Assembly: GCA_045546275.1 (NCBI GenBank)
Contig: JAZQCM010000042.1
Span: 70,146 to 134,145 of the forward strand
DNA: 64,000 nucleotides
DNA from: Clostridia bacterium
GTDB lineage: Bacteria; Bacillota; Clostridia; UMGS1883
Direction: 5' to 3'
Part shown: one piece after another, positions 16,396 to 43,653 of the stretch
How the letters are laid out: each line of letters starts with the position of its first letter
Position numbering within the stretch: position 1 is the first letter of the stretch
Made by a program: the position numbers and the translations under genes
The notes under the pieces: generated by a model
The model's database searches: none
Told to the model about the DNA's origin: nothing
The model's input: only the letters and a program-made list of their open reading frames with translations

Positions 16396-16738
16396 GGGGG
16401 CGTAACGGCTTCGACGGGGATTTTGAAAACTGAAGAGCGGGCAGAGGTGGAGACTCTTAAAACTCCGAAATTAAAATTAAACGCTAACAATAATTTAGCT
16501 TACGCTGCCTAATTACGGCAGCCGTCCTGTTTAAGAGTACCGCGACTTAAATAAGGGCGTCGACCAGCGGTGAACGTGATACGGCTAAGCTTTGCGCCGT
16601 ACATGAAAAATGAAGCTACCAAACTGTGAAGGCCGTCAATAGCCGGCGCAGGGAGGAAATTTTAAAATGTTGACTGCGCCCGGAGAGAGCAGTTGGATGG
16701 GTTTTCGGACAGGGGTTCAACTCCCCTCGCCTCCACCA
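16396..16738 (+). ncRNA. ssrA: tmRNA (SsrA)
   Basis: 5' GGGGGCGTAACGGCTTCGACGGGG pairs with the 3' end ...GGACAGGGGTTCAACTCCCCTCGCCTCCACCA (tRNA-like T-arm and acceptor plus CCA). The internal tag frame 16483-16512 (GCT AAC AAT AAT TTA GCT TAC GCT GCC TAA) encodes ANNNLAYAA-stop. Located just downstream of smpB. Confidence 0.93.
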
Positions 16739-16972
16739 ATCATTTTCACGGAAAATGTGAAATTATTAGAATACGCCGTAATTACAAGCTTTTTGTGATT
16801 GCGGCGTATATATTTTTGGCAAAAAAAGGGAGTAAAACTGCTAAAATAGCAGTTTTTTGTTATATAACCGTAACCAACCCACGTCAAGGGTGTGAAAAAG
16901 TTTGTAATTAAGGGAAATTTACAGAGCATAAAAAATTTTGTTTTTGAGAGCGAAACCAGCTGATTTTGCGTC
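16727..16972 (+). repeat. ssrA 3'-end repeat copy 1 (authentic gene end plus type-A flank)
   Basis: TCGCCTCCACCA plus the hairpin TTTTCACGGAAAATGTGAAA, then two further hairpin/T-run elements. About 245 nt are near-identical to 35249-35494. Confidence 0.85.
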
Positions 16973-17075
16973 CCTAAAAGCAAACAAATGTTCGAAAACA
17001 CCTTGTAATTTTGTTGGGTTTATGATATTCTAATATTTGATAAGACATAATGTATTTAAAAGAGAGGGACAAATA

Positions 17076-17612
17076 ATGAAAGAAATCCTGTTAGAAAATA
17101 TTGATGTGATAGTAACTATCATCGGTTTTATTATTACATATAAGATGACAATAAAGTCATTTGGAGATGAAATTAGAAAAAGTAAAATATCACATAATAT
17201 TGAAATGATACATTCCTTGCCCTATGAAGTTTGCGAATTAATGACAAAGGTCCAGAAAAGTACAAAAGGAGGGGGGAATAATTCTTTTCATGCCCAAGAA
17301 TATGAGAAGTTAATGACAAAAATATTTGCATATGGAAGTAGTGCTGCAGTTACTATTATCACTGAGGTGCAACAAACGTCCTATAGAATGAATCATTTGG
17401 AGAAAAAGGATTCTCAATATCGAATTCTAATACTTTATGCTTTGCTGATAACACAATTGAAATATGATATTAGCGATGAAATAGTTTCTCCGGAAAATTG
17501 GTTTAAATTAAAAATTAATGACTACTATAAAATGAGAAAAACTATTGTAAAAGAGATAAACGAAATTGTTTCAGAACTTGAATTAAATGAAAAGTTTTAT
17601 GTAGAGAAATAA
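17076..17612 (+). CDS. Hypothetical small membrane-anchored protein (partner of KAP NTPase)
   Basis: RBS AGAGAGGGA, then ATG at 17076 (MKEILLENIDVIVTIIGFIITYKM: one N-terminal TM helix). The rest is helical with no motif I recognise. It ends 24 nt before the KAP gene. Confidence 0.55.
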   Translation: MKEILLENIDVIVTIIGFIITYKMTIKSFGDEIRKSKISHNIEMIHSLPYEVCELMTKVQKSTKGGGNNSFHAQEYEKLMTKIFAYGSSAAVTIITEVQQTSYRMNHLEKKDSQYRILILYALLITQLKYDISDEIVSPENWFKLKINDYYKMRKTIVKEINEIVSELELNEKFYVEK

Positions 17613-17636
17613 TGGTTTATATAAGGAGCAAAAGAT

Positions 17637-18971
17637 ATGCAAAAGATAAGCGGAGATCACTTATATAGAACGCAGATAATAGATGATATAATTACTGTTA
17701 TTGCGTCCTGTGTAAAAATGAAACAACCTGTATGTTTTTCTATTGAGGGAGAATGGGGCAGAGGAAAAAGTTGGATAGTACAGCATGTAGTTAAAAAACT
17801 TAAAGGGTATGATTTGTCAATAGAGTGTAGCAAAAATAGTGCGTTGAGAGATATATGTAATGAATATATTGTATTTAATTATAATGCGTGGGAAAAAGAT
17901 TATTATGCCGAGCCACTGTTAGGAATTTTATTAACAATGGTAAATCAACTGAACGAAGTGTTAAAATTAGAGAATTTTTTGAAAGCTGAGTTAAAGGTTT
18001 TATACGCAGAAATTAAAGACATTTTGGAGAAGGTATTAGGTGCAATATCTTTAAAAATGATAGGTGTAAATGTTGTAGATGTTGGGAAACGAGGGTTAGG
18101 TATTTTTACTCAGATAAAGAAAAAGCAGGATATTAAGCTATCAAGTGCAACAAACAGTAATGTAGAGGAAGATATTGGCTTAGTGGTTAATACATTAAAT
18201 AGGTTGTCTAAAAGAATCCCAATCGTTTTTATTGTTGATGAATTAGATCGTTGTCTGCCAGAGCATGCTATCAAGACATTGGAAAGACTGCACCATGTTT
18301 TTAGCAAAATTAATTCATCTGTAACCATTGTGGCGGTTAACGAGAAACAACTTAAGAATAGCGTAATTCAGATGTTTGGGAAAGATATTTCTTTTGATAC
18401 ATATTTAAGGAAATTTATAGACTTTCGAATAAATATAGATAATGGGACTGTTGATGGAGATGAACTGAAGAAGAAACTTCAAGAATATAAAGGTTTTTTT
18501 AGTGATAGAGGAAATGAATCTATTTTTGATGATGTGTTAGGTGGTATTTTTAGAACTTTAAATGCTAGGGAGATTGAAAGGGTTTGCAGTAATGCAATGC
18601 TCTGCCATAGGCTTGTTGATGTAGATACGAGAAATTTTGAATATGATTATATGGTGGCAGAATTGTTTTTGTTCGCTCATAAAATCGTTTCTGAAAAAGA
18701 AGGAAATTCATCAAATCTTTCTCCAATATACGGAAATCGTGCAACAACAAATGGGGGACAGTTTATAAAAACATTTTTAACTGATGCGAAAAATAGAAGA
18801 GTAATAAATGTTACTGATTCTAAAAGTGTTATATTCTATATTGCGGTAATTGTTTTAGATTTGCAAACTCATGGGGCGATGAATTTACAGATAGAAGAAA
18901 GCGAAGGTTTAAATGATATTATAAATTATTTCAACAAGTACAAAAAGTTTTATAAGATGATAAGAATTTAA
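17637..18971 (+). CDS. KAP-family P-loop NTPase
   Basis: Walker A GEWGRGKS (17748-17771), NYNAWEKDYY, and Walker B IVFIVDELDRC (DELDRC at 18237-18254) followed by LPEHAIKTLERLHHVF. This is the KAP signature set. I see no obvious TM insertion between Walker A and B. Confidence 0.8.
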   Translation: MQKISGDHLYRTQIIDDIITVIASCVKMKQPVCFSIEGEWGRGKSWIVQHVVKKLKGYDLSIECSKNSALRDICNEYIVFNYNAWEKDYYAEPLLGILLTMVNQLNEVLKLENFLKAELKVLYAEIKDILEKVLGAISLKMIGVNVVDVGKRGLGIFTQIKKKQDIKLSSATNSNVEEDIGLVVNTLNRLSKRIPIVFIVDELDRCLPEHAIKTLERLHHVFSKINSSVTIVAVNEKQLKNSVIQMFGKDISFDTYLRKFIDFRINIDNGTVDGDELKKKLQEYKGFFSDRGNESIFDDVLGGIFRTLNAREIERVCSNAMLCHRLVDVDTRNFEYDYMVAELFLFAHKIVSEKEGNSSNLSPIYGNRATTNGGQFIKTFLTDAKNRRVINVTDSKSVIFYIAVIVLDLQTHGAMNLQIEESEGLNDIINYFNKYKKFYKMIRI

Positions 18972-18976
18972 AATAG

Positions 18977-19019
18977 AAAACACATTGTAAGTGAAACTTT
19001 TGGTTGCAATGTGTTTTTT
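18977..19019 (+). terminator. Intrinsic terminator after the KAP gene
   Basis: AAAACACATTG ... CAATGTGTTTTTT with a large loop and a T6 run. Confidence 0.6.
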
Positions 19020-19048
19020 CTATATGCATTGCAAATTAAAAAATGATA

Positions 19049-19077
19049 TTGCTTTTGTTCGAGGTTTGGAATATAAT
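19049..19077 (+). promoter_or_regulatory. Putative promoter of the R-M operon
   Basis: TTGCTT (19049-19054), 17-nt spacer, TATAAT (19072-19077). Confidence 0.5.
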
Positions 19078-19091
19078 AAACATATCAACAC

Positions 19092-19113
19092 GTAAACATG
19101 TTTACATGTAAAC
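19092..19113 (+). promoter_or_regulatory. Putative operator: three alternating half-sites GTAAAC-AT-GTTTAC-AT-GTAAAC
   Basis: Two overlapping perfect 14-nt palindromes (19092-19105 and 19100-19113) lie between the predicted -10 and the RBS AGGAGG (19114-19119) of the HTH-fused methylase. Confidence 0.5.
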
Positions 19114-19126
19114 AGGAGGTTTCGTT

Positions 19127-20197
19127 ATGAGTTTTATATCTGCAAGAGAAGCGGCTGATAAATGGGGAATATCTCAAAGAAGGGTTGCAGTTCTCTGTTC
19201 TGAAAATAGAATTGATGGTGCGATTATGGTGGGCAATATGTGGATTATTCCTAATGAAGCTAAAAAGCCTGTTGATGCCAGAAGTACACGGTATATAAAT
19301 AGTGATGAAAAAACCGTAAAGCCATTTTTGAAATGGGCAGGGGGTAAAGGGCAACTTATTAAAGAAATTGAACAGTATTACCCCTTTGAAAGCGATAAAA
19401 TAACAAAGTATGCAGAACCCTTTATCGGTGGCGGTGCAGTATTATTTGATATCTTAAACAAGTATGACTTGGAAGAAGTATATATCAGCGACATCAATCA
19501 TGAGCTTATAAATACGTATTGTACTGTCCGTGATGAAATAGATGCATTGTTGAATTTGCTGTCAATATATCAGGAGGAATATGTTCCACTTGATACCGAA
19601 ATGCGTAAGGAATATTACATGGCAAAACGTAATAGATTCAATGATTTGAAAGTTAATGGGAATATCAGAGCAAATGTAGAAAAAGCTGCATTGATGATAT
19701 TCTTAAACAAAACTTGTTTCAACGGATTGTTTAGAGTAAACAGAAAAGGTTTGTTTAATGTTCCGATGGGAGCGTATAAGAATCCTCTTATCTGTGACGA
19801 AACAAATCTTCGTGCAGTGGCAGAAAAGTTGAAGAAGGTTACCATCGTTTGTGGCGACTATAAGGAATCGGCAGACTTTATTGATCAAAATACCTTTGTG
19901 TATTTTGATCCGCCATACAGACCTATAACAGAAACTGCAAGTTTTACATCATATGCTGAAAATCCTTTTGAGGATGAACAGCAGATAGAGTTGGCACGAT
20001 TTGTTGATTCAATGAGTGACAGAGGAGCAAAGATTGTTGTAAGCAACTCCGATCCAAAGAATATCAATGAAGAAGATGATTTCTTTGATGATATTTATAG
20101 TGCGCATAATATAAGAAGAGTTGAAGCAACTCGAATGATTAATAGCAATTCAGATGCGAGAGGCAGGATAAAGGAATTATTAATATCAAATTTTTGA
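19127..20197 (+). CDS. HTH-fused Dam-type N6-adenine DNA methyltransferase (DpnM/M.MboIA-like, GATC)
   Basis: The first ~60 aa form an HTH module (ISAREAADKWGISQRRVAVLCSENRIDGA). The remainder parallels S. pneumoniae DpnM: FLKWAGGKGQL, EPFIGGGAVLFD, FVYFDPPYRPITETASFTSY, VEATRMINSNSDARGRIKELLISN. Confidence 0.88.
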   Translation: MSFISAREAADKWGISQRRVAVLCSENRIDGAIMVGNMWIIPNEAKKPVDARSTRYINSDEKTVKPFLKWAGGKGQLIKEIEQYYPFESDKITKYAEPFIGGGAVLFDILNKYDLEEVYISDINHELINTYCTVRDEIDALLNLLSIYQEEYVPLDTEMRKEYYMAKRNRFNDLKVNGNIRANVEKAALMIFLNKTCFNGLFRVNRKGLFNVPMGAYKNPLICDETNLRAVAEKLKKVTIVCGDYKESADFIDQNTFVYFDPPYRPITETASFTSYAENPFEDEQQIELARFVDSMSDRGAKIVVSNSDPKNINEEDDFFDDIYSAHNIRRVEATRMINSNSDARGRIKELLISNF

Positions 20198-20211
20198 GGG
20201 AGAATGAAAAA

Positions 20212-21069
20212 ATGAGAAATTTTGAAACTTGGATGTCGACGTTTAAAGATAATATTGCTACATGGAGATACTATACTGATTTTGACAAGGTTATTAGAAA
20301 TGTTGACAAAATTAAGGATGAACTTAATATTTTGAATGGCCTTATAGGGGTAGAAAATATTGAAAGTGAGTTTAGAAGGATAGTTGAAAAATATCCTAAT
20401 ACATTAAAAGTCGTTCCAATACTTATAGCAAAGCGTGAACACGAAATAAAAATTACTGCAGCAGAGGGTACATATCTGTTTAATTTTAAAAATCCTAATT
20501 ATTCCATTGATGAATATGTTAAGTTTATGGAGAAAACAGGTCTGTTTGAATTGTTGCAAAAACACATTATCCATTCATTAATTGACTATGTTATGGGCGT
20601 AGAAGCAGGAATGGATACTAACGGTCGTAAAAACCGAACAGGTGATGCGATGGAAGATTTGGTTGAGTCTTATATTGTAAAAGCCGGATTTGTCAAGGAT
20701 GAAACATATTTTAAAGAAATGACAATCAGTCGTATCACAGATAAGTGGGGCATAGACTTATCAGCGATTTCTAACACAGGGAAAACAGAGAAGAGATTTG
20801 ATTTTGTAATAAAGACTGATAGTATGATTTATGCTATTGAAACGAACTTCTATGGTAGTAATGGCTCTAAATTGAATGAAACATCCCGTAGCTATAAAAA
20901 CCTTGCATTGGAAGCGGATACTATTGATGGATTTACATTTGTTTGGTTTACTGATGGTAGGGGTTGGATAGGTGCTCGACATAATCTTGAAGAAACATTT
21001 GAAGTTATGGAGCATATTTATTCGATTAACGATTTAGAAAATGGTATTATGAACGAGGTTTTTAAATAA
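20212..21069 (+). CDS. Type II restriction endonuclease, DpnII/MboI family (GATC)
   Basis: RBS GAGGGAG, then ATG at 20212. NFETWMSTFKDNIATWRYYTDF, VVPILIAKRE, GVEAGMDTNGRKNRTGDAMEDLVESY, RFDFVIKT and GSKLNETSRSYK closely track the DpnII (DpnB) sequence as I remember it. Confidence 0.88.
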   Translation: MRNFETWMSTFKDNIATWRYYTDFDKVIRNVDKIKDELNILNGLIGVENIESEFRRIVEKYPNTLKVVPILIAKREHEIKITAAEGTYLFNFKNPNYSIDEYVKFMEKTGLFELLQKHIIHSLIDYVMGVEAGMDTNGRKNRTGDAMEDLVESYIVKAGFVKDETYFKEMTISRITDKWGIDLSAISNTGKTEKRFDFVIKTDSMIYAIETNFYGSNGSKLNETSRSYKNLALEADTIDGFTFVWFTDGRGWIGARHNLEETFEVMEHIYSINDLENGIMNEVFK

Positions 21070-21818
21070 TGGCAACAAAAAAAATAAAAAAATGGGAGCC
21101 TGAAAACTTTGAATTGGAAATGACAACACATTGGTCATTTCCTAAACGAGGCGATTGGGCAACCCATGATGCTAAATGGAGAGGAAACTGGTCGCCTTAT
21201 ATACCGAGAAATATAATGCTTCGATATTCGCAAGAAGGAGATTTAGTGCTTGACCAATTTGCAGGTGGTGGTACGACACTTGTTGAAGCAAAGCTTTTAA
21301 ATCGTGACATAATCGGTGTTGATGTTAATGATGTCGCACTTGAACGATGTAGAGAGAAAACTGATTTTGAATATGAGAATGCAAAAGGCAAAGTGTACAT
21401 AAAAAAGGGCGATGCAAGAAACCTTGATTTTATACCTGATGGAAGTATTGATTTAATATGCACACATCCACCATATGCAGATATTATTAAGTATAGTGAT
21501 GGTATCGAGGAAGATTTGTCGCAATTGAAAGTAAAAGACTTTATTGAAGAAATGAAAAAGGTAGCCAGTGAAAGCTACCGTGTATTAAAGAAGGACAAGT
21601 TTTGTGCTGTGTTAATGGGAGACACCAGGCAAAAAGGGCATATGATACCTATGTCTTTTGATGTTATGAAAATCTTTCAGGATGCAGGTTTTAAACTGAA
21701 AGAATTGATAATAAAAGAGCAACATAACTGTAAAGCAACAGGATACTGGAAGACAAACAGCGTTAAGTATAACTTTTTACTTATTGCACATGAGTATTTA
21801 TTTGTGTTTAGGAAGTAA
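21069..21818 (+). CDS. Second DNA methyltransferase (N6/N4 type; motif I before motif IV)
   Basis: ATG overlaps the endonuclease stop (TAATG). VLDQFAGGGTT (AdoMet motif) and ICTHPPYADII ((D/N/S)PPY-like motif). The M-R-M gene order is the one known for MboI. Confidence 0.75.
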   Translation: MATKKIKKWEPENFELEMTTHWSFPKRGDWATHDAKWRGNWSPYIPRNIMLRYSQEGDLVLDQFAGGGTTLVEAKLLNRDIIGVDVNDVALERCREKTDFEYENAKGKVYIKKGDARNLDFIPDGSIDLICTHPPYADIIKYSDGIEEDLSQLKVKDFIEEMKKVASESYRVLKKDKFCAVLMGDTRQKGHMIPMSFDVMKIFQDAGFKLKELIIKEQHNCKATGYWKTNSVKYNFLLIAHEYLFVFRK

Positions 21819-21933
21819 ATACGTAATAAATAATATAGTTTATAAATAGTGTGAAGAGTTGTATTTAAAAAAGATACTGTTGGAATTGACATTAACCAAA
21901 TAGAAAGTTTGTGAACTTTTAGGAGAAATAATT

Positions 21934-22611
21934 ATGGAACGGAACAATAAATTTATGTTTGCATATATCTTGTTTATTGTGTTTTGCGGTTTTGCAAGAC
22001 TGTTTGTAGAATATAGTGCATGGGAGGAAATTGTAGCAGCAGTTACATGCTCTAGCTGGTTTTTTGCGGTATCAGACTCTTATAGGGCTGATATAGAAGA
22101 TATACAGGAATATATTAATATCACATCAAATTATAGTACATCTTGCCTTAAAAGTATTAAGATTATTATTGAAGGAATACAAAATAGCATTTCTCAAGCC
22201 AAGGCTGATGTTAATGTTAACAGAGATAATGTTGATTACGTATCCAAAGGAGAGGATATTATTCAAACTCTTGAAGAGATTATACCATATTTTCAAGATA
22301 AGGAAAAGGAAAGCAAGGATAAACAATCTAAAATTAAACGCAAAGAAATAGGCGAGACAATTTTTACTATTGGAGGATACTTTACTTTTTTTGTTATTTT
22401 GACTTTTAATACGATCGCTGAAATTGCTATAGCGGTTCAAGATGTTTTGACGGTTTTTGCATTTGCATCTATCCTAGTTACGCAATTCTTTACAACTCTT
22501 AACAGAAAGGTTAATGCTAAAAAACAGGATGAGTTTAACGAAATGATTCGAAAATTTGAGAAATTGAGTGATAGATACACTAACTGCTGTAATCGCTCCA
22601 TGGGAGAATGA
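21934..22611 (+). CDS. Hypothetical membrane protein
   Basis: 225 aa: two N-terminal and two C-terminal hydrophobic helices flank a charged helical segment. RBS AGGAGA upstream. No motif recognised. Confidence 0.5.
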   Translation: MERNNKFMFAYILFIVFCGFARLFVEYSAWEEIVAAVTCSSWFFAVSDSYRADIEDIQEYINITSNYSTSCLKSIKIIIEGIQNSISQAKADVNVNRDNVDYVSKGEDIIQTLEEIIPYFQDKEKESKDKQSKIKRKEIGETIFTIGGYFTFFVILTFNTIAEIAIAVQDVLTVFAFASILVTQFFTTLNRKVNAKKQDEFNEMIRKFEKLSDRYTNCCNRSMGE

Positions 22612-22987
22612 TTCAAGGACTGTTGCAGTTGCTACGCCTGTAAGAAAACTAATCATGAGCTTACAACCTCCCCTATGGTTAATATAGCAAGTGTAGTTGC
22701 AAAACCTAAAAATGCGTATTTCATTAGTCTTCATCAAAACAGAGCGAATCGAACCATAACGACCAAAATAATACGCCCGTAGTCAAAGAGGACTACGGGC
22801 TTTCATATTTTCTCCCAAAACACTTTTTTCGTGGGTTTGTGGCGATAGGCTCCACCAAGTGAACGAAACAGAAACATGGAGGAGAAAAAAGTGCCGAAGT
22901 GATGGGGTACATAGATTTTCTGAAATTGTACGTGTTCGCTTGTGCAGAGAAAACACCTTATTTTCGGTGAAAACTTCTGAGTGGGTA

Positions 22988-23165
22988 TCGCCTCCACCAT
23001 TCATTTTCACGGAAAATGTGAAATTATAAAAATACACCTTATAGCTAGATTCCTTGCCATAAGGTGTATTCTTTCGTTTGAGCCAGTATCGGCAAAAATT
23101 GCAAACTTTTTGAATTTTTGTAAAATTACAAGTCGGGGATAGGCAGGATGTAGTCAGTAAAATAG
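22988..23165 (+). repeat. ssrA 3'-end repeat copy 2 (type-B flank)
   Basis: TCGCCTCCACCATTCATTTTCACGGAAAATGTGAAATTAT plus the hairpin AATACACCTTAT...ATAAGGTGTATT plus AGCCAGTATCGGCAAAA...TTTGTAAAATTACAAGTCGGGGATAGG. Matches 37738-37917 and, in part, 43504-43653. Confidence 0.85.
23099..23126 (+). promoter_or_regulatory. Possible outward-facing promoter inside the type-B flank
   Basis: TTGCAA (23099-23104), 16-nt spacer, TAAAAT (23121-23126), pointing into module B. The equivalent site in copy 4 reads TCGCAA. Confidence 0.3.
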
Positions 23166-23341
23166 AGAGAGGGTAAATTTGCCAAGGAAATGCAAGATTT
23201 TTATTTGAAAAAACGCAGAATTTTATTAGCAGCAAAAAGTCCTGAAGAATGGTGATTAGAAGCATTGACTTTGGTAATAAATAGCGATATAATTATAGTG
23301 TATAATTAGGTGGATTTTATTCTGATTGAAGGAGGGGTATA

Positions 23342-35494: not shown

Positions 35495-35683
35495 AATTCT
35501 ACAGGATGTTATTCCTATGGTGGAGGGTGAGTGCGAGAAATCAAGTCTTAATTTGTTGGTGAGAATAATAACAATTTGTATCAATAATGTTGAAAAACTA
35601 CCAAATTAATGTATAGTGAAAATAGGAAAGTTAAATTTGTTTTGACTTCATTGAATTATAATTAGAGTTAAGGAGAGATTGTT

Positions 35684-36313: not shown

Positions 36314-36422
36314 CATCATTATCACAACGATGAAGGATGTGCCCAGATAATGAATGGATGTGTGCATGTTTCCTGTTGAAAAAATAGGGGTATGTAATGT
36401 ATAATTTTTATGAGGTGATCAC

Positions 36423-37604
36423 ATGAAACCAATACTTCTACTTGATGCAAATATTTTTGGAACGATACCCTATGAAGACTTAAAAGAATTTATACAAAAA
36501 AGTCAAAACTTTTTAACGGACGATGTAGTTAAAGAGTTATTGGAAGGACAACGCAAACATGCAAATCATGATGAGTTTTCAAAAAAACTTAATTTAGTAT
36601 TTAATGAACAAAATGGACTAAAGAATGAATTTGCTTTACTTGTTTCGCATGTTCCGATTGATTTAGAAGATGTGATTGAAAATACAAAAAAGACATATGA
36701 TTTGAAGAGAAATCCAAATATTTGTAGTGCACATCATTTATGGCTGCGTTCAATTATATGCCCTACGTTAATATCTAATATGAATAGGACTGTAAACAGT
36801 CTTCTAACATGGCAATTAAGAAATGAAGAAGTAGATTATAATAATTCTAACTGGCAAAATATAAAGAATAAAGTAAAATTAAGCGAAATAAAAAAGGCGG
36901 ATCCCTATTTTTGCGATTCAAATGTTAAAGCAAAAAGACTCTTTAAGACATGGAACAAAAGAGATGTTGATATACGAGATGGGAAATATAAAGTATCCGA
37001 CAGTAGACTAATTGCCCATGCTATGGATTTAATGTTTGCTTATGGAATATCTGTCAATATTCTCACGGGTGATTATGATGTAATAGATCTTCAGAAGAAC
37101 TTGTTTGAATCTTTTATAGATAGTTATGCGATTTATGAAGTGTTGAAAAAGAAACTTAAATATGAAAAATTAACATCAAAACGCGAGACTATAATTGTAC
37201 CTATTGATGAGTTTAAAGATGTTTATGATGAGAGTGTAGAAAAAGCAGAAAAAACAAAAGAATGCATTAAATTAATTGTATGGTTTTACAATAGAGATAC
37301 ACGAACATATGAACTTTCTGAAAATTATCTTCCTAAATGGCTACATGAATTTGCAAAAAACTATAAAGGAAATATAGACTGTTATGCATTGAGAAAAGAA
37401 CAGTATGGACAGTATTATATTCAGTATGTTTGGGAACCACAATATGAAGAAGGAAATATTAAATTCACGGTTTGGAGAAGAGACACAAACGGAATTGCAG
37501 ATGTAATGCAACCTTTAAAGTGTAAGATTATGTGCACATATGAAATGGAAGAGATTAACAATCCAAACAACATGGGTGGGTTCATTAAATCAATAGAGAG
37601 TTGA
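36423..37604 (+). CDS. PIN-like nuclease-domain protein with C-terminal extension (tentative)
   Basis: N-terminal ILLLDANIF (Asp codon 36444-36446), VVKELLEG, and later SDSRLIAHAMDL...VNILTGDYDVIDL. These resemble the four acidic positions of PIN domains, but with a long insertion. The ~170-aa C-terminal region has no match I recognise. Confidence 0.45.
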   Translation: MKPILLLDANIFGTIPYEDLKEFIQKSQNFLTDDVVKELLEGQRKHANHDEFSKKLNLVFNEQNGLKNEFALLVSHVPIDLEDVIENTKKTYDLKRNPNICSAHHLWLRSIICPTLISNMNRTVNSLLTWQLRNEEVDYNNSNWQNIKNKVKLSEIKKADPYFCDSNVKAKRLFKTWNKRDVDIRDGKYKVSDSRLIAHAMDLMFAYGISVNILTGDYDVIDLQKNLFESFIDSYAIYEVLKKKLKYEKLTSKRETIIVPIDEFKDVYDESVEKAEKTKECIKLIVWFYNRDTRTYELSENYLPKWLHEFAKNYKGNIDCYALRKEQYGQYYIQYVWEPQYEEGNIKFTVWRRDTNGIADVMQPLKCKIMCTYEMEEINNPNNMGGFIKSIES

Positions 37605-37737
37605 CAAATAGTGAATGGTTCAGTTGCGATGGGGAAAACAAACTTTATTTATTCCCGAATAAAGTTATTTACAATCCTTGTTTTGATTATTTACAACAAA
37701 ACAACTTTGCCGTGACGCAATAGCCAACAGTTACACG

Positions 37738-37917
37738 TCGCCTCCACCATTCATTTTCACGGAAAATGTGAAATTATAAGAATACACCTTATAGCAAGGT
37801 TTGCCTTGCCATAAGGTGTATTTTTTCGTTTAAGCCAGTATCGGCAAAAATCGCAAACTTTTTGAATTTTTGTAAAATTACAAGTCGGGGATAGGAAGGA
37901 TGTAGTCGGTAAAATAG
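37738..37917 (+). repeat. ssrA 3'-end repeat copy 4 (type-B flank)
   Basis: Matches 22988-23165. It is preceded by a ~100-nt left arm (37637-37737) homologous to 43403-43503. Confidence 0.85.
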
Positions 37918-38128
37918 GTGCGAGTCTGTTTTGGGCAGTATCGTAAAACTTTTTTTGTGAAAAAATTTGATGGGGTAGGATGGTAAGGGTAGCCTTTGGC
38001 GAATGGGTGCAAGTACCTTTCAGGCTCAATATCCATAAGTAGTGTGCAGAAATGGAAGTGTTCGGAGGGTGTATGTGAACCCGCGGAAATCTATTGAAAA
38101 AGAATAGAATTGGTGTATAATTGAATAA

Positions 38129-39055
38129 ATGAATTACGAAAATATTAGTAGGAGTGGAGGGGCTAGTTTGGATATTAAATATTCCGATGAGACAAGGTGT
38201 TGTTTGTTGGATGATAAAAAAAGAAGAGAGGTAGAAAAAAGATTAGTGAATACAGTAAAAGGATTTATGGAGAAATACAATATAAAATCCTTGAATGCTA
38301 TTGAAATATATAAATTTGATGAGAAAAAACAAGAGCTAGGAGCTATAAAAAAAGAATTTGTAAACAAATTGCCGTCAACAGTGTTATTTATTTCTGATTT
38401 AAGTTTACAACAAATTAGTCAACCACACAATGTGAAATATGGCATTCATACTGTTCATCACGAGCTATGTCATGTGAAAGATTTCGAAACAATATGTAAT
38501 AATATGAATGGTATTTTAGTGACAGATTCATATGAGCATCCATATTCCATGGAAAGTTTATGCTTTATATGGGGATATGAATTGTTTGGAGAATATTTGG
38601 CATATAGAAATTCATATTCATCATATGCAGAACAAAAACAACAGCATAATTTTATATTGTATCATGAAATGTTTGATGACATTATCCAAGATATTACGCT
38701 TATATGTAATAGTAAACAACGTAGGCAAAATACATATACTAATGAGAATTTATTAAATATTACAAAAAGAATTGTAATGTTCATATGTAAAAATTTAGGG
38801 TACTATCATGCTTCAAACAATAAAGTCTTTATGAAAAATATGGCGCAGATTGCTGATGTCAAATTTATTGAATATATAAATCAATTGGATGAACAACTTA
38901 AAAAATGGTTTCAAGGATATCCAAACTGGATTAGTTATAACTCATATGTTGAAATAGGCTGTTTGGTGTTATCTGTTTTTTCTATCTATGGAGTAGATTT
39001 AGCGGTAACAAATAACGAAACATGTTTCCATATGGAAAAAGAAGTTGAACCGTAA
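38129..39055 (+). CDS. Hypothetical protein with HExxH zinc-metallopeptidase motif
   Basis: 308 aa. HTVHHELCHVKD (HELCH codons 38459-38473), with a downstream acidic/aromatic segment WGYELFGEYLAY as a possible third ligand region. No signal peptide. Confidence 0.55.
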   Translation: MNYENISRSGGASLDIKYSDETRCCLLDDKKRREVEKRLVNTVKGFMEKYNIKSLNAIEIYKFDEKKQELGAIKKEFVNKLPSTVLFISDLSLQQISQPHNVKYGIHTVHHELCHVKDFETICNNMNGILVTDSYEHPYSMESLCFIWGYELFGEYLAYRNSYSSYAEQKQQHNFILYHEMFDDIIQDITLICNSKQRRQNTYTNENLLNITKRIVMFICKNLGYYHASNNKVFMKNMAQIADVKFIEYINQLDEQLKKWFQGYPNWISYNSYVEIGCLVLSVFSIYGVDLAVTNNETCFHMEKEVEP

Positions 39056-39109
39056 TAGCTGTTATAAGAAGCGAATGAATATATAGAATAAACGAACGGA
39101 GGAAAAATA

Positions 39110-40933
39110 TTGGAACTTTATGATTTGCTGAAAGAAACCATGAAAGTTGAAAGGCGAGCATTTTTATCAAATCCTTTTTCCGATAAACTAAAAGAAACTC
39201 TCGACGCTGATGATGAAAAGTTAACGTATGAATTGCTAAAAAATATATGCAATATAGCTATGGTCGTATCTGATGATGGGGTGACATTTCAACCTTCAAT
39301 TATCATGCGTAATAAAAGGTCTTATTCACTAGAGGACATGACAGAGGAAGATTATCGACGACTGGAATCACTGGAAATTTATAAGTTGCCTGTACATATT
39401 AGGGCGCGTGTTGCTGATATTCTGTGGACACAAAAAAGAATTTATAAATACGCTAATATTGCTGCTGAAGCTTATATTGAGTTGTTTAATCTGCTATTTT
39501 CTGAAGATGATTGGCTTGAATCATTAGATGTGATTAAACGTGCGATTTGCATTTATGTTCAAACAAACAATAAAGAACGCGATAACTGTTATCAACTCAT
39601 ATATAACCATTTGGTTAGAATCGATGGGAAAGACGAGTATTTTCTATCTCTAAAATTAATTGAGATATTGCTTTTTCAGTCTTTCGATAATCTGGATGTA
39701 ATTATAGGAATACTTGATAAAATCATATCACGCAATCAGGATAATCCCAATAAAATTGAACATGCATATGAACTAAAGTTCAAGTGCATAAACAAACGAG
39801 AAGGACTGGAAAAAGCACGACAGGTAAATATAGATTTGGCAGATTACTTTGTTTCATTTGCTGAAAGGCTATTTGTTTCCCAAGAGCAAGGGGCATTAAG
39901 ATCGGAGATATATTTAAAGAAGGCAATATATTTATATCGTAACAACGGGCAACCAAGCAAAGGGGAAGTAACACATAGGCGATTAATAGAGGTTCAAAAA
40001 GAGAAAATTAAATATATGCACGCATATGAGCAGATGATAGATGTAAGTAAAGTAATTCAAAATGTTAAAAATAATATGGAAGGATTGTCTTTTGAAGAGA
40101 GCATTATAAGGATTATGCAACTCACTAAGTTCTATACAAAAGATGAAGTGAAAAAACGAGTGCTTGAAGAGAAAAATTCATTCTTTTTAGCACGCTATTT
40201 CCCCAAGAGCATTGTGAACGAAGAAGGACAAACAATTTTGGAGCTGCCACCATTAGATTTGGAAAACCCTTCGGAAAATACGGAACTGCTTGACTTACAC
40301 ATACATAATAAAATGCTCGAGTTACAAACTTATGGCGGTGATTGGTATCTTGCATTTGTGTTGTCTTATATACAAAGTAATTTTGATATATATAACGAAA
40401 GTTTAGAGTTTATAATAAAAGATAATATTATTATACCTGAAGGTAGGAAGCGCGTAATAACGTTTGGTATTCGTTTAGCATTACAAGGAGAATATTATGA
40501 GGCGTTACACATTTTAGCTCCACAAATAGAAAATATATTTAAGAATATTGCAAAAGCGGCAGGGGCTGTAACTGTTACTTTAGAGAAGGACGGTACTTCA
40601 AAAGATAAATTGCTAAGTTCTATTTTTGATTTGCATGAACTTATAGACTGCTATGATAACGATATTTTATTTTTGTTTAAAGGGTTACTAAATGAACAAG
40701 CCGGGGCAAATATAAGAAACAATATTGCTCATGGAATTATGAGCGAATCTAATGGTAGTCATGGGTCAAGTTTGTATTTTATATGCGCTGTGATAAAACT
40801 TTTTGCGATATCTTCCCCGCGGTGTTGGGAAATACTAAATGATATGAGAGAAATGAAACCATGTACACCAATTGAGGAAGGTGCATTAAAAATAGTTAAA
40901 GACAGTGAAAACTGTAATATAGAAGAAACATGA
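39110..40933 (+). CDS. Large helical protein with C-terminal HEPN-like Rx4H motif (DUF4209-like, tentative)
   Basis: TTG start 7 nt after RBS ACGGAGG; 607 aa. C-terminal LLNEQAGANIRNNIAHG (Arg codon 40715-40717, His codon 40730-40732) fits the HEPN Rx4-6H signature in its RN..AHG flavour. Confidence 0.55.
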   Translation: MELYDLLKETMKVERRAFLSNPFSDKLKETLDADDEKLTYELLKNICNIAMVVSDDGVTFQPSIIMRNKRSYSLEDMTEEDYRRLESLEIYKLPVHIRARVADILWTQKRIYKYANIAAEAYIELFNLLFSEDDWLESLDVIKRAICIYVQTNNKERDNCYQLIYNHLVRIDGKDEYFLSLKLIEILLFQSFDNLDVIIGILDKIISRNQDNPNKIEHAYELKFKCINKREGLEKARQVNIDLADYFVSFAERLFVSQEQGALRSEIYLKKAIYLYRNNGQPSKGEVTHRRLIEVQKEKIKYMHAYEQMIDVSKVIQNVKNNMEGLSFEESIIRIMQLTKFYTKDEVKKRVLEEKNSFFLARYFPKSIVNEEGQTILELPPLDLENPSENTELLDLHIHNKMLELQTYGGDWYLAFVLSYIQSNFDIYNESLEFIIKDNIIIPEGRKRVITFGIRLALQGEYYEALHILAPQIENIFKNIAKAAGAVTVTLEKDGTSKDKLLSSIFDLHELIDCYDNDILFLFKGLLNEQAGANIRNNIAHGIMSESNGSHGSSLYFICAVIKLFAISSPRCWEILNDMREMKPCTPIEEGALKIVKDSENCNIEET

Positions 40934-40983
40934 TCGTTAGAGAATAAATATATGCATTTAAAAATAACGGAGGGTGGTGCAGG

Positions 40984-42525
40984 ATGATGGAATCGACTGA
41001 TAAACTAATTGATAAGTTGGATAGATATGACTTTGTGCAGTTTGTTAAAGATTTAATTATTAATTCTGAGCAATATCGAAGGAATACCGGTGCAAAATCT
41101 TATGTTGCGGCATTAGATTCTGCGTGGGGGACAGGCAAGAGTTACTTTATAGATTTGCTCATGCAAGATATTGAAGAACAAAATAATATACGTGTGATAA
41201 AATACAATGCATGGGAAAACGATTATTGCGATAATGCTTTCAATCCTTTGATTTACGATATCTTAAAATCAGAATGTTTAAGTTTCAGTACGGAAACTGA
41301 TGCTGACATAGAGAATATTGGAAAAATGGTGAAAAGCATATTGAAAATAGGAGCCGCTTTCACAAAACAGCTTACTGTAGATGCAATAAAAGAAAAAATG
41401 GGAGTAGATGTTGAGAAAGCGCTGCAGGAAGCACTAAGTGCAGGCAAAACAGTAAAAGATTTTATGCTTAGGGAAATACCAAATATTGAAATATTGAATG
41501 AGCAGCGCGAAGCGTTTGAGGAATTTAAAAATTACTTAAGCAATGCAACAACATGGCTGAAAGAATCCGACATAAAACTTGTTGTTATAATTGATGAATT
41601 GGATAGATGTAAGCCTACATTTGCTATACAAACTTTAGAAGTGGTTAAGCACTTATTTGATATCGAAAATATTGTGTTTCTATTTGCTGTTGATATAGAA
41701 CAGCTTAGTCATAGTGTGTCAAGTGTTTATGGACAAGGTTTTGACTCTGTGGGGTATTTATGCAGGTTTTTTGACTATATTGCGAAAATGCCGATTCCAA
41801 ACATTAATGTTTATGTACAGGATCAAATAAATAGCATGGGATTAATTGGAGATATAGATGTTCCAGATGTTTCGGAAGCCTATAAAACACGGAAACTGGC
41901 AGAATTGGTTTCAGAGTTTATTGTTGAAACATACAGAAGTTTTGATTTCTCGCTAAGAGATTTAGATACACTCCTGCAAAGCTATAAAATAATGCTAAAT
42001 AACTTTTTAGGAGATTATAAAATGCTTGGTGCGCATATGATATACATATTTTATTTGGCATTGAAATATAAGAAGCCAGATATGTTCTATAAGACTTTTT
42101 TAGACACGGCATCATACAAATCATTTATACAGTCAGATCTTGCCCCTTTCATAAGAAGAAAATATCAATCAAATAAATGGCTACAAGCAACCAGCGATGT
42201 TATGTATGTAGATAAACCGTTATGTGATGTGGACTTGTTGCCGTACTTCGATGGAAGAGGGAACAACGATGGTTCAATTACAAAATACATTCGATTAGAG
42301 ACTTATGAGAATGGAAAAATTGTTGCATTAGTTAAAGTGAATGTAAGTGGAAGAATGATTAATGAAAGGCTGGAGTTGGAAAATAGATCGAATAACAGTA
42401 TGGGTAATATCCTTTTTGACCAAGATATTTTAAAATGGGAAGATATTAAAAAAATGACATACAGGGAATATCTTCATAAGCAATTAGAAAATTATAATTT
42501 TGTGTCAACAAAAGAGCAAGCGTAA
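40984..42525 (+). CDS. KAP-family P-loop NTPase (second copy in window)
   Basis: Walker A LDSAWGTGKS (41116-41142), YNAWENDY, and Walker B VVIIDELDRC (DELDRC at 41593-41610) followed by KPTFAIQTLEVVKHLF. Same motif set as 17637-18971, but otherwise divergent. Confidence 0.8.
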   Translation: MMESTDKLIDKLDRYDFVQFVKDLIINSEQYRRNTGAKSYVAALDSAWGTGKSYFIDLLMQDIEEQNNIRVIKYNAWENDYCDNAFNPLIYDILKSECLSFSTETDADIENIGKMVKSILKIGAAFTKQLTVDAIKEKMGVDVEKALQEALSAGKTVKDFMLREIPNIEILNEQREAFEEFKNYLSNATTWLKESDIKLVVIIDELDRCKPTFAIQTLEVVKHLFDIENIVFLFAVDIEQLSHSVSSVYGQGFDSVGYLCRFFDYIAKMPIPNINVYVQDQINSMGLIGDIDVPDVSEAYKTRKLAELVSEFIVETYRSFDFSLRDLDTLLQSYKIMLNNFLGDYKMLGAHMIYIFYLALKYKKPDMFYKTFLDTASYKSFIQSDLAPFIRRKYQSNKWLQATSDVMYVDKPLCDVDLLPYFDGRGNNDGSITKYIRLETYENGKIVALVKVNVSGRMINERLELENRSNNSMGNILFDQDILKWEDIKKMTYREYLHKQLENYNFVSTKEQA

Positions 42526-42559
42526 AAATTCGCGTGACAAATATATAATACCGATGAGG

Positions 42560-42585
42560 AGCTTACTGGAAACAGTAAGCTTTAT
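42560..42585 (+). terminator. Hairpin terminator after the KAP gene
   Basis: AGCTTACTG-GAAA-CAGTAAGCT followed by TTATT (weak U-tract). Confidence 0.45.
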
Positions 42586-42693
42586 TCCTTTAAAAGGGAA
42601 GAAATATTCAAAAATTTATTCAAACAATCGGTTATTGTGAATTTCTTAAAAGCATTTTATAATAAGATTAGAGATTGACAGGAGGGAAAATGT

Positions 42694-43224
42694 ATGGATA
42701 TTAAAAAAGTAGGATATCAGATAGCTGAATTAAGAAAGAATAAAGGGTTAACACAAAGTGATTTGGGCGACCGACTGGGCGTGAGCTTTCAGGCGGTAAG
42801 TAAGTGGGAACGTGGCGAAACGCTTCCGGATACGGCAATACTTGTTCCGCTTGCTGAGGTTTTAGAAACAACGGTTGATTTCATCCTGACAGGTGGTGAA
42901 AAGGCGTTAAATTATCGTGGGAAAATTAAAGTTGGCGATATGTTTGAGGGCATAAAGCACTTAGGCAAAATTGGGGAATGCTTAGGTCGCGACAATATTA
43001 TTTATCGCTATGCAATAAAGGGCATAAATGACGGAATGAATACTGACATTGAAGCGTGTTTTACTGATGACTATGTGATGGAATGCTTTGTGGCAGAAGC
43101 CATTATTCAAAATCTTAAAATGGGCGCATATGTAGACTTAACAGACGTGAAGAAAAGCTTTAAACATGAGCATTTTAGAAATATTGTTATTGATTGGTGT
43201 GCAAAGTACGGCATAACAGCATAA
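42694..43224 (+). CDS. XRE-family HTH transcriptional regulator with C-terminal domain
   Basis: The N-terminus IAELRKNKGLTQSDLGDRLGVSFQAVSKWERGETLPD is a canonical HTH_3 motif. 176 aa. Confidence 0.8.
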   Translation: MDIKKVGYQIAELRKNKGLTQSDLGDRLGVSFQAVSKWERGETLPDTAILVPLAEVLETTVDFILTGGEKALNYRGKIKVGDMFEGIKHLGKIGECLGRDNIIYRYAIKGINDGMNTDIEACFTDDYVMECFVAEAIIQNLKMGAYVDLTDVKKSFKHEHFRNIVIDWCAKYGITA

Positions 43225-43279
43225 AATGTCGGGATTTTCTATGAAGAATATTCTATAATTCATTACGGGAGGTGTAATT

Positions 43280-43399
43280 ATGGATTGGGTAGAAAGAATA
43301 CAAAAGGCTATTGACTATATCGAAGAACATCTTACCGAAAAGCTCGATGCGGAAAGTATAGAAGACCATTTGGGGACGTACATTTTTTGTCAACCTTAA
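43280..43399 (+). pseudogene. Truncated N-terminal fragment of an AraC-type regulator
   Basis: The 39-codon ORF MDWVERIQKAIDYIEEHLTEKLDAESIEDHLGTYIFCQP-stop has an AraC/GyrI-like regulator N-terminus (MDW.ER...AIDYIEE.L...L). It stops 4 nt before the conserved left arm of the last ssrA repeat. Confidence 0.45.
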
Positions 43400-43503
43400 G
43401 ATAACAAACTTTATTTAACCACCAATAAAGTTGTTTGCGATACAGGTTTTGAGTCGTTCCAACAAAACAACTTTGCCTTGACTTGATAGCCAGCAGTTAC
43501 ACG

Positions 43504-43653
43504 TCGCCTCCACCATTCATTTTCACGGAAAATGTGAAATTATTAGAATACACCTTATAGCTAGATTCCTTGCCATAAGGTGTATTTTTTAGTTTAAGCC
43601 AGTATCGGCAAAAGATGGGTATTTTATTAGGTTTTGTAAAATTGCCGGGGTAG
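43504..43653 (+). repeat. ssrA 3'-end repeat copy 5 (type-B-like; presumed ancestral downstream flank)
   Basis: TCGCCTCCACCATTCATTTTCACGGAAAATGTGAAATTATTAGAATACACCTTATAGCTAGATTCCTTGCCATAAGGTGTATTTTTT... shares the hairpin terminator and part of the following sequence with copies 2 and 4. Confidence 0.8.

What the first reader, a model, noticed from the sequence alone, without database searches (positions are those of the whole stretch)
16727..43653. Five direct copies of the tmRNA 3' end partition ~27 kb of A+T-rich cargo into four modules with no recognisable integrase
Seen: the tmRNA terminus TCGCCTCCACCA plus the next ~30 nt (hairpin TTTTCACGGAAAATGTGAAA) occurs five times in direct orientation, at 16727, 22988, 35249, 37738 and 43504. 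Only the first copy is attached to a full tmRNA. Similarity extends further in two flavours. Flavour A is 16727-16972 vs 35249-35494, near-identical over ~245 nt. Flavour B is 22988-23165 vs 37738-37917, and partly 43504-43653. The DNA between copies is visibly more A+T-rich than the flanking core (secG-rnr-smpB-ssrA on the left, sugar ABC operon on the right). It carries R-M, NTPase, nuclease-like and secreted-protease cargo. Established: the ssrA 3' end is a classical att site, and integration duplicates the gene end. Unusual: I recognise no tyrosine or serine recombinase, excisionase or phage structural gene in any module. In addition, the flank following copies 2 and 4 resembles the presumed native downstream flank (copy 5) for over 100 nt, which is far longer than a usual att core. 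Inference: either serial accretion at ssrA with subsequent integrase loss, or module shuffling by homologous recombination between long ssrA-flank repeats.
Basis: partly seen in the sequence, partly recalled or inferred. Interest (0 to 1): 0.7.

Follow-up and report, generated by a model that had tools for sequence, protein, structure and literature searches.

The report
Recombinase-less defence cassettes stacked at ssrA
Four gene cassettes, mostly anti-phage defence, are stacked behind the tmRNA gene of an uncultured gut Clostridia bacterium, each starting with a copy of the gene's last 12 bases; this is a known kind of island pile-up, unusual only because no cassette has its own recombinase.

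Summary
One intact tmRNA gene (16396-16738) is followed by five direct copies of TCGCCTCCACCA at the stated positions (0.12 expected by chance). All pairwise similarity starts exactly at that T and runs 54 nt. It then continues in two types, A (copies 1 and 3) and B (copies 2, 4 and 5). The A+T-rich DNA between the copies forms four cassettes with 16 genes, all on the + strand. Neither the called ORFs nor the other 138 six-frame segments of at least 50 aa match a recombinase or transposase. Related contigs show polymorphism at the repeats. One shares cassette 3 up to the last base of the 12-mer and then differs. Another has the DpnII operon as its own cassette between two type-B copies, beside an element with two large serine recombinases. 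Distantly related serine-recombinase phages carry the same 12-nt tmRNA end about 100 nt after their recombinase gene. My best reading is serial site-specific accretion at ssrA of cassettes that depend on a recombinase supplied in trans, with later reshuffling. This resembles the Dehalococcoides ssrA islands, so it is a new member of a known kind. Interest is moderate.

The parts
16396..16738 (+). Intact tmRNA gene (ssrA). Its last 12 nt are repeat copy 1.
   Evidence: ARAGORN; Rfam RF00023, 165 bits. The genes upstream of ssrA include SmpB (15840-16304).
16727..16972 (+). Copy 1: 12-mer, then the 54-nt universal block (to 16780), then the type-A trailer with two terminator-like hairpins (16771-16809, 16834-16856).
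16739..22987 (+). Cassette M1. Genes: AbiN-like (17037-17612), KAP NTPase/PDC-S20 (17637-18971), Dam methylase (19127-20197), DpnII endonuclease (20194-21069), second methylase (21069-21818), 225-aa unknown protein (21934-22611).
   Evidence: Pfam and PADLOC. The segment 19040-21816 is 93% identical to a separate cassette in L173.
22988..23206 (+). Copy 2: 12-mer, universal block and type-B trailer (long hairpin at 23028-23072 and a promoter-like site at 23099-23126).
   Evidence: It is 92% identical to L173:9528-9749.
23000..35248 (+). Cassette M2. Genes: S8 subtilase (23342-24739), 2300-aa surface protein with LRR, Big_2, papain and lectin domains (24747-31649), 1069-aa repeat protein with no family match (31642-34851).
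35249..35494 (+). Copy 3: 12-mer, universal block and type-A trailer.
   Evidence: 93.5% identical to copy 1 over 246 nt.
35261..37737 (+). Cassette M3. Genes: DUF4428+YbjQ protein (35684-36313) and a 393-aa protein with PIN-like invariant acidic residues (36423-37604). It ends in R1.
   Evidence: It is 92% identical to Logan contig L081 up to base 37749.
37634..37737 (+). R1 right-end element upstream of copy 4.
   Evidence: R1 also occurs in L081 and L167-L170 next to different cargo.
37738..37918 (+). Copy 4: 12-mer, universal block and type-B trailer.
   Evidence: The stretch 37728-37918 is 96% identical to L173:9518-9708; the trailer alone (37750-37918) is 97% identical.
37750..43503 (+). 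Cassette M4. Genes: 308-aa protein with an HExxH motif (38129-39055), PDC-S39/DUF7380 protein (39110-40933), KAP NTPase/PDC-S20 (40984-42525), XRE-type HTH protein (42694-43224), a truncated AraC/GyrI gene start (43281-43362), then R1.
42601..43362 (+). Imported block: the HTH-176 gene plus the first ~80 nt of an AraC/GyrI gene, cut off at 43362.
   Evidence: 99% identical to L165, where the gene pair is intact.
43400..43503 (+). R1 right-end element upstream of copy 5.
43504..43644 (+). Copy 5: 12-mer, universal block and type-B trailer. It is the last copy.
   Evidence: 43495-43644 is 95% identical to the last copy of the L173 array; the trailer alone (43516-43644) is 97.7% identical.
43645..44932 (.). 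Stretch without a convincing ORF before the sugar ABC operon, holding three repeated minus-strand promoter+hairpin units. It is probably still accessory DNA.
   Evidence: The segment 44439-44932 is 80% identical to DNA upstream of the Dam gene in L167-L172.

Best explanation
The region is a tandem array of four recombinase-less cassettes accreted at the 3' end of ssrA by site-specific recombination. Each incoming element carried an att site that starts with the last 12 nt of tmRNA (T plus the 3' acceptor strand and ACCA). Integration therefore rebuilds the gene and pushes the older copy downstream, which explains five co-oriented copies that all begin at the same base. Each cassette's left end supplies a replacement tmRNA end, a roughly 40-nt conserved trailer and a strong hairpin terminator (types A and B). 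Cassette promoters follow. Two cassettes end in a conserved 104-nt right-end element, R1. The crossover is inferred to lie at or just inside the left edge of the 12-mer. The recombinase is not encoded in the array. It is most likely a large serine recombinase supplied in trans by a sibling element, making these cis-mobilizable (CIME-like) cassettes. Shown: the anatomy, the absence of a recombinase, boundary polymorphism between strains, and serine recombinases that use this same 12-nt block. Inferred: the crossover position, the recombinase class, and whether the cassettes can still move. After accretion the cassettes were further remodelled by recombination away from the repeats.
For: 1. Five exact 12-mers, with all pairwise similarity starting at the same T in every upstream context seen in the window and in the related contigs. 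2. L081, from another sample, is 92% identical to M3 through R1 and the 12-mer. It diverges at the next base into a different terminator and a 197-nt unit, followed by another copy. 3. In L173/L175 the DpnII operon (93% identical) sits alone between two type-B copies. It lies next to an element carrying two large serine recombinases, 486 and 516 aa. L174 has the same recombinase element followed by a different cassette that ends in the same right-end element, R2. 4. R1 is joined to at least three unrelated cargos, and the type-B trailer precedes several different cargos or flanks. 5. IMG/VR serine-recombinase elements L180-L193 have, about 100 nt after the recombinase match and inside the recombinase reading frame...GGTCACG|T(C/T)(A/G)CCTCCACCA. 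This is the same block with the same left edge. L197 has an intact tmRNA at one end and this recombinase at the other. 6. Relatives L004, L043 and L097 have serine recombinase genes a short way downstream of smpB/ssrA (209 nt after the tmRNA in L004). Among 54 relatives, ORFs starting within 4 kb after ssrA include 6 serine recombinase ORFs and 3 tyrosine integrases. 7. Precedent: Dehalococcoides ssrA islands form tandem arrays bounded by ssrA repeats and use a large serine recombinase, and the members lacking it are read as CIMEs (PMC3146451). The CIME and accretion concept is described in PMC5704250.
Against: No recombinase can be tied to this genome. None of the 120 closest listed relatives of the L173 recombinase, nor any member of its 90% cluster, lies on a contig of the window's length, 143,686 nt. 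The rest of the assembly could not be read. ssrA was not seen on the L173/L175 contig, so it is not shown that that array is anchored at ssrA. The IMG/VR recombinases are only about 27% identical to the L173 one, and their flanking arms do not resemble R1, A or B. Conservation spans 100-250 nt on each side of the 12-mer, far more than a serine recombinase site needs. The 54-nt block contains an imperfect inverted repeat, CATTTTCAC-N7-GTGAAATTA, which could be a site of another recombinase type. No excised circle or empty site was observed.
Confidence: 0.6

Rival explanations
1. Homologous recombination only. The roughly 300-400-nt linkers (R + 12-mer + trailer) act as portable homology. Cassettes are gained, lost and duplicated by RecA-dependent exchange or unequal crossing-over, with no site-specific enzyme involved.
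For: Long similarity around the copies: 246 nt at 93%, 180 nt at 94%, and 246 nt for copies 4 vs 5. Individual trailers are 97-98% identical to particular copies in L173. Cargo blocks have moved with breakpoints away from the repeats.
Against: It cannot create the first duplication of a gene end. Similarity begins at exactly the same base in every upstream context seen. L081 diverges immediately after the 12-mer. Unrelated serine-recombinase phages carry the same 12-nt block.
Confidence: 0.13
2. Four once-autonomous islands, each of which lost its own integrase by deletion. The array is now a fixed fossil.
For: This is the usual route proposed for CIMEs (PMC5704250). AraC is visibly truncated at 43362, so deletions do occur here.
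Against: No recombinase fragment of at least 25-50 aa survives in any of the four cassettes. M3 is only 2.5 kb. The conserved ends R1, A and B are attached to different cargos in different genomes, which suggests ongoing use of those ends.
Confidence: 0.15
3. A tyrosine recombinase (Xer-like or an integrase in trans) acts on the inverted repeat CATTTTCAC-GGAAAAT-GTGAAATTA, which lies 13-37 nt into the 54-nt block. The 12-mer is only the outer edge of its left arm.
For: The invariant block extends about equally on both sides of that spacer. Tyrosine integrases also occur next to ssrA in relatives.
Against: The L081 junction keeps only the 12-mer and lacks the inverted repeat. The left edge coincides with that of the serine-recombinase phage sites. 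No tyrosine recombinase is linked to any related array seen here.
Confidence: 0.09
4. Assembly artefact: strain variants of one locus were chained through shared repeats in a metagenome-assembled genome.
For: The relatives recovered here are almost all metagenome bins or metagenome contigs, so the window's 143,686-nt NCBI contig may be one too. Logan contigs do break at these repeats.
Against: The copies are not identical, and the longest shared exact run is 52 nt. Independent assemblies also show two copies on one contig (L081, L173).
Confidence: 0.03

Closest known systems
Dehalococcoides ssrA-specific genomic islands (McMurdie et al. 2011, PMC3146451)
   Same: Multiple tandem islands downstream of the single-copy ssrA, delimited by direct repeats of the ssrA 3' end. 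Additional conserved sequence surrounds each repeat. A large serine recombinase is involved, and members without an integration module are interpreted as cis-mobilizable elements.
   Different: There the repeat is 20 bp and the insertion point is in the T-loop. Sixteen of the identified islands carry the DsiB module next to attL on the reverse strand. Here the block is 12 nt and starts at the last base of the T-stem. No cassette in the array has a recombinase, and the cargo is mostly phage defence rather than dehalogenases.
CIMEs and tandem accretion (ICESt1/ICESt3 family in Streptococcus thermophilus; reviewed in PMC5704250)
   Same: Elements flanked by attL and attR but lacking integration and transfer genes. 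They lie in tandem at the 3' end of a target gene and can be mobilised by a related element's recombinase.
   Different: Those depend on tyrosine integrases of conjugative elements. Cis-mobilization has been shown experimentally there, not here.
Staphylococcal cassette chromosome composites and ccr-less pseudo-SCC elements (my own knowledge; SCC is compared with the ssrA islands in PMC3146451)
   Same: Cassettes stacked at the 3' end of one essential gene and bounded by short direct repeats. Some lack the large serine recombinases CcrAB and rely on them in trans.
   Different: The target is rlmH (orfX), not ssrA, and the att sequences are unrelated.
Islander/TIGER-type tRNA/tmRNA islands and 'Traffic at the tmRNA gene' (Williams; Islander paper PMC4383910; the 2003 paper is from my own knowledge)
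   Same: The intact gene plus displaced 3' fragments mark island ends, and tandem arrays occur at tmRNA genes.
   Different: Those islands are defined by an integrase gene inside the island. None is present here.
Integron cassette arrays
   Same: Co-oriented cassettes without their own recombinase, separated by a repeated recombination site.
   Different: No IntI, attI or attC is present. These cassettes hold several genes and have their own promoters, and the repeated site derives from a gene end.

Membership tests
tRNA/tmRNA-integrated genomic island (Islander definition) | Intact target gene plus a displaced 3' fragment as a direct repeat at the far end | tested here: met
   tmRNA at 16396-16738 plus four further exact 12-mers in direct orientation.
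tRNA/tmRNA-integrated genomic island (Islander definition) | Integrase gene inside the island | tested here: not met
   No Phage_integrase, Resolvase, Recombinase or transposase hit in the called ORFs or in the other 138 six-frame segments.
tRNA/tmRNA-integrated genomic island (Islander definition) | Sporadic presence among related genomes with precise boundaries | tested here: inconclusive
   Polymorphism at the repeats is seen in L081, L173, L174 and L167. No genome of the same species with an empty site was available: the best SmpB match in the genome and metagenome collections is 73-74% identical.
Cis-mobilizable element (CIME) | Flanked by att sites (attL/attR) | tested here: met
   Each cassette lies between two copies of the 54-nt block.
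Cis-mobilizable element (CIME) | No integration or transfer genes | tested here: met
Cis-mobilizable element (CIME) | A related recombinase-bearing element uses the same att site | tested here: inconclusive
   A serine-recombinase element adjoins homologous cassettes in L173/L175 and L174. Its own att sites were not resolved. The sequence about 45 nt after the 486-aa recombinase gene (ACGAACCTCCACCGCC...) only loosely resembles the block.
Cis-mobilizable element (CIME) | Excision or mobilisation together with, or by, the helper element | not testable with these tools
   This needs reads, PCR or genetics.
Dehalococcoides-type ssrA-GI | Tandem islands bounded by ssrA 3'-end repeats downstream of ssrA | tested here: met
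Dehalococcoides-type ssrA-GI | DsiB-type integration module next to attL on the reverse strand | tested here: not met
   No serine recombinase is in the window. All 16 cargo genes are on the + strand.
Dehalococcoides-type ssrA-GI | [quoted passage not shown] | tested here: not met
   Identity here starts at the last base of the T-stem, giving a 12-nt block.
Integron | intI integrase with an adjacent attI, and attC sites between cassettes | tested here: not met
   No tyrosine recombinase was found. The repeats derive from the tmRNA end.

The most novel reading that the evidence does not exclude
The cassettes are not decayed islands. They would be units of a dedicated exchange system: gene cassettes with standard ends (12-mer plus an A or B trailer on the left, R1 or R2 on the right) that never carry a recombinase. 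A large serine recombinase on a separate 'platform' element would insert, excise and swap them at ssrA. This would be a serine-recombinase analogue of an integron, specialised for phage-defence cargo in gut Clostridia.
Probability: 0.2. Interest if true: 0.7.

Novelty: new member of a known kind. Interest (0 to 1): 0.42.

Why it matters
This locus shows ssrA acting as a stacking site for phage-defence cargo in an uncultured Oscillospiraceae-like lineage of Clostridia. It also gives defined, testable sites: the 12-mer, the 54-nt block, R1 and R2, and the A and B trailers. The candidate enzymes are the 486- and 516-aa serine recombinases of L173/L175. If the cassettes move in trans, defence genes in these bacteria would be exchanged in small recombinase-free units. 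Island finders that require an integrase would miss such units. If they do not move, this is one more decayed island array at a tmRNA gene.

Tried and rejected
1. Exact-protein look-ups of SmpB and of the right-flank permease found nothing on record.
2. Exact DNA patterns for the core and for R1 found nothing in viral contigs or JGI metagenomes.
3. BLAST of the repeat regions against phage records gave only generic matches to the tmRNA end.
4. SmpB-based scans of the genome and metagenome collections gave only relatives at 74% identity or less, so no same-species empty site was available.
5. I first read R1 as a relic of the AraC gene. Alignment with the intact AraC of L165 does not support this. 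Instead, the first ~60 nt of R1 match the 5' region of a small RNA-polymerase-alpha-CTD-like ORF in L175.
6. A second right-end element, R2 (seen in L173 and L174), is not significantly present upstream of copy 3 (E = 0.07).
7. The second 12-mer in relative L137 encloses a prolyl-tRNA synthetase gene and no integrase. It is probably chance or ancient.
8. The integrase-sized 393-aa protein was checked as a possible hidden recombinase. It has no Pfam or PDB sequence hit. The first AlphaFold model was poor (pLDDT 42). With 26 homologues the model is confident (pLDDT 91), but it has no PDB fold match at E <= 0.001 and only a weak PIN-domain hit. Its invariant D8, E38, D193, D217 and D219 fit a PIN-like nuclease.
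9. A single-protein scan of viral contigs with the L173 recombinase found nothing. The profile scan was the one that worked.
10. I could not decide whether the sequence after the L173 recombinase gene is an att site.

Full report
**Observation**

The window holds one tmRNA gene at 16396-16738 on the + strand, with tag peptide ANNNLAYAA. Its last 12 nt, TCGCCTCCACCA, recur exactly at 22988, 35249, 37738 and 43504, all in direct orientation. Shuffled sequence gives a mean of 0.12 such matches. A profile of the copies finds no degenerate sixth copy.

Reading the gene end, the 12-mer is the last base of the T-stem, followed by the 3' strand of the acceptor stem and ACCA. Every pairwise alignment between the copies begins at that T. 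All ten pairs share a 54-nt block at 90-98% identity. This block is the 12-mer followed by (A/T)TCATTTTCACGGAAAATGTGAAATTAT(A/T)A(G/A)AATAC(A/G)CC.

Beyond the block there are two trailer types:
- Type A: copies 1 and 3, 246 nt at 93.5%.
- Type B: copies 2, 4 and 5, 140-180 nt at 89-94%.

Both types fold into an unusually long hairpin followed by a T-run, with different stem sequences. I call this element R1 (37634-37737 and 43400-43503).

G+C is 0.29-0.38 between the copies and 0.40-0.44 outside them. The longest exact run shared by any two copies is 52 nt, which argues against an assembly built by collapsing identical repeats.

**Content of the cassettes**

The four intervals hold 16 genes, all on the + strand.
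- M1: an AbiN-like protein, a KAP-family NTPase (PADLOC candidate system PDC-S20), and a DpnII-type restriction-modification operon with two methylases.
- M2: an S8 subtilase, a 2300-aa surface protein with LRR, Big_2, papain and lectin domains, and a 1069-aa repeat protein with no family match. This cargo is not defence.
- M3: only 2.5 kb, with a DUF4428+YbjQ protein and a 393-aa protein.
- M4: a 308-aa protein with an HExxH motif, a DUF7380/DUF4209 protein (PDC-S39), a second KAP NTPase, an XRE-type HTH protein and a truncated AraC/GyrI gene.

Positive GC skew across the whole window and mostly + strand flanking genes make the common orientation unremarkable.

**No recombinase in the array**

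Four HMM libraries searched with the called ORFs gave no integrase, resolvase, transposase or excisionase. I then translated every other stop-to-stop segment of at least 50 aa in all six frames from 16.7 to 45.1 kb. Scanning these 138 segments with Pfam gave four marginal, unrelated hits. A large-serine-recombinase HMM built later, run without filters on all window segments of at least 25 aa, gave nothing below E = 0.6.

The one integrase-sized unknown, the 393-aa M3 protein, was pursued separately. A 26-sequence alignment gave a confident AlphaFold model (pLDDT 91). That model has no PDB match at E <= 0.001 and only a weak PIN-domain hit. Its invariant D8, E38, D193, D217 and D219 fit a PIN-like nuclease.

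**Organism and relatives**

SmpB places the window among uncultured Oscillospiraceae/Acutalibacteraceae-like Clostridia. The closest match among GTDB species representatives is 74% identical, and the closest in the metagenome contigs is 73%. No same-species empty site could therefore be examined.

Among 89 related loci with a tmRNA, none has more than two copies of its own tmRNA end within the stretch held for each locus, which reaches at most about 10 kb past ssrA. Five copies is unusual in that limited view.

**Polymorphism at the repeats**

Near relatives came from protein clusters at 90% identity or more.
- L081 (Logan contig, another sample) is 92% identical to M3 from 35990 through R1 and the 12-mer. 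It stops matching at the very next base. A different terminator and a 197-nt unit follow, then another copy of the block. The 12-mer is therefore the only sequence common to all junctions, and it is a breakpoint between strains.
- L173/L175 (another assembly) has the DpnII operon, 93% identical to 19040-21816, as a cassette of its own between two type-B copies. The trailer after its first copy is 97% identical to that of window copy 4. The trailer after its last copy is 97.7% identical to that of window copy 5. Both of its copies are preceded by a different conserved right-end element, R2.
- L167-L170 carry a variant of the operon that ends in R1 and the block.

R1 is thus attached to at least three unrelated cargos, and the B trailer precedes several different cargos or flanks.

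**A candidate recombinase class**

In L175, the cassettes are preceded by an element bounded by two large serine recombinases. One is 516 aa on the minus strand at the left, the other 486 aa on the plus strand at the right. A DUF927 primase-like gene lies between them. L174 has the same element at 92.6% identity, extending to about 200 nt past the 486-aa gene. A different cassette follows, ending in R2.

A profile of this recombinase family found IMG/VR contigs encoding recombinases about 27% identical. In thirteen of them (L179-L183, L185-L188, L190-L193) the same kind of junction appears, about 100 nt after the recombinase match and inside its open frame. In the twelve from L180 on it reads ...AAGTTCGCACAAGGTCACG|T(C/T)(A/G)CCTCCACCA. 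That is the same 12-nt tmRNA end with the same left edge as in the window, where R1 ends ...GTTACACG|TCGCCTCCACCA.

Further support comes from other loci:
- L197 has an intact tmRNA at one end of the contig and this type of recombinase at the other.
- L192 has two such recombinase genes back to back across the 12-mer.
- Relatives L004, L043 and L097 carry serine recombinase genes a short way downstream of smpB/ssrA, starting 209 nt after the tmRNA in L004.
- Among 54 relatives with at least 3 kb after ssrA, ORFs starting within 4 kb include six serine recombinase ORFs and three tyrosine integrases.

Serine recombinases that cut at this position of ssrA therefore exist in this part of the tree.

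**Mechanism proposed**

An element whose att site begins with the 12-mer recombines with the end of ssrA. The element's copy completes the gene, and its trailer supplies the terminator. This would explain why every copy is followed by a strong hairpin, and why A and B keep the structure with different sequence. The older copy moves downstream with the previous cassette.

Repeating this process gives the array. The recombinase is supplied in trans.

The shown and inferred steps are these:
- Shown: the anatomy, the lack of a recombinase, the precise and polymorphic boundaries, and the existence of serine recombinases using the same block.
- Inferred: the crossover position, the enzyme class, and present-day mobility.

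This is the CIME and accretion scheme (PMC5704250). The closest described case is the Dehalococcoides ssrA island array (PMC3146451).

**Complications**

Conservation of 100-250 nt on each side of the 12-mer is more than a serine recombinase site requires. It may reflect terminator and promoter functions, shared ancestry, or homologous exchange between linkers.

Cargo has also moved independently of the repeats:
- The DpnII operon has breakpoints at 19040 and 21816.
- The segment 42601-43362 (the HTH gene plus the first ~80 nt of AraC) is 99% identical to L165, where the gene pair is intact, and is cut at 43362.

The 54-nt block also contains an imperfect inverted repeat that could serve a different recombinase. 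Three gaps remain: ssrA was not seen on the L173/L175 contig, no recombinase is linked to this genome, and no circle or empty site was observed.

The array may also extend past copy 5. The segment 44439-44932 has a homologue upstream of the Dam gene in L167-L172.

**Verdict**

The locus is a new member of a known kind of structure.

It is of moderate interest for three reasons:
- All four cassettes lack a recombinase.
- The same cassette ends recur with different cargo in other genomes.
- The cargo is mainly phage defence.

The more novel reading is a dedicated cassette-exchange system driven by a serine recombinase. It is not excluded, but I give it about one chance in five.

Noticed in passing
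window 43690-44690: Three repeated units on the minus strand lie in the ORF-poor stretch before the sugar ABC operon. Each has a near-consensus promoter (TTGACA-17-TATAGT), about 65 variable nt, a hairpin with a T-run, and the conserved motif ACATTTTTAACAGCGGTTAG.TTTATAACCTTATAATC. There is no Rfam match. They could be small RNA genes. A homologous stretch lies next to an IS21 upstream of the Dam gene in L167-L172.
   Followed up: partly
L030:9675-9847, L040:3130-3425, L124:10805-10989, L081:2213-2432: Mini-modules of 160-280 nt lie between two copies of the tmRNA end in four different genomes. Each has a terminator, an inverted copy of that genome's own tmRNA T-arm, about 100 G+C-rich nt, and then a direct copy of the T-stem 3' strand plus the acceptor end. 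ARAGORN and Rfam gave no hit on L081, the only one scanned. They remain unexplained.
   Followed up: partly
window 36423-37604: This 393-aa protein family has 56 representatives at E <= 0.001 in the 50%-clustered protein library. It has invariant PIN-like acidic residues and conserved cysteines. The AlphaFold model is confident (pLDDT 91) but has no significant PDB match. Homologues sit among defence genes (Mrr, Fic and AIPR in L083).
   Followed up: partly
window 42601-43362; L164, L165, L166: The HTH-176 gene plus a 298-aa AraC/GyrI regulator form a pair that occurs at 92-99% nucleotide identity in three other genomes, in three different neighbourhoods. In the window the AraC gene is cut after about 27 codons.
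   Followed up: yes
L192:9953-13059; L004:11037-17381; L097:4950-9378: Large serine recombinase genes are clustered at ssrA-derived sites in other loci. Two lie back to back across the 12-mer in L192. Four lie in tandem after ssrA in L004, and three in L097.
   Followed up: partly
L175:1-3618: A Gabija-like pair (an OLD-type TOPRIM ATPase and a UvrD helicase) lies just upstream of the serine-recombinase element in the related array. That array is therefore also rich in defence genes.
   Followed up: no
window 23342-34851: Cassette M2 carries an S8 protease, a 2300-aa multi-domain surface protein and a 1069-aa repeat protein rather than defence genes. The array therefore also moves cell-surface cargo.
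   Followed up: no
L165:1-9839: An element with a tyrosine integrase, a repressor, an HTH_17 excisionase-like gene and a small terminase subunit carries an nSTAND3/AAA + S8 peptidase pair. It sits directly upstream of the intact HTH-176/AraC pair.
   Followed up: no
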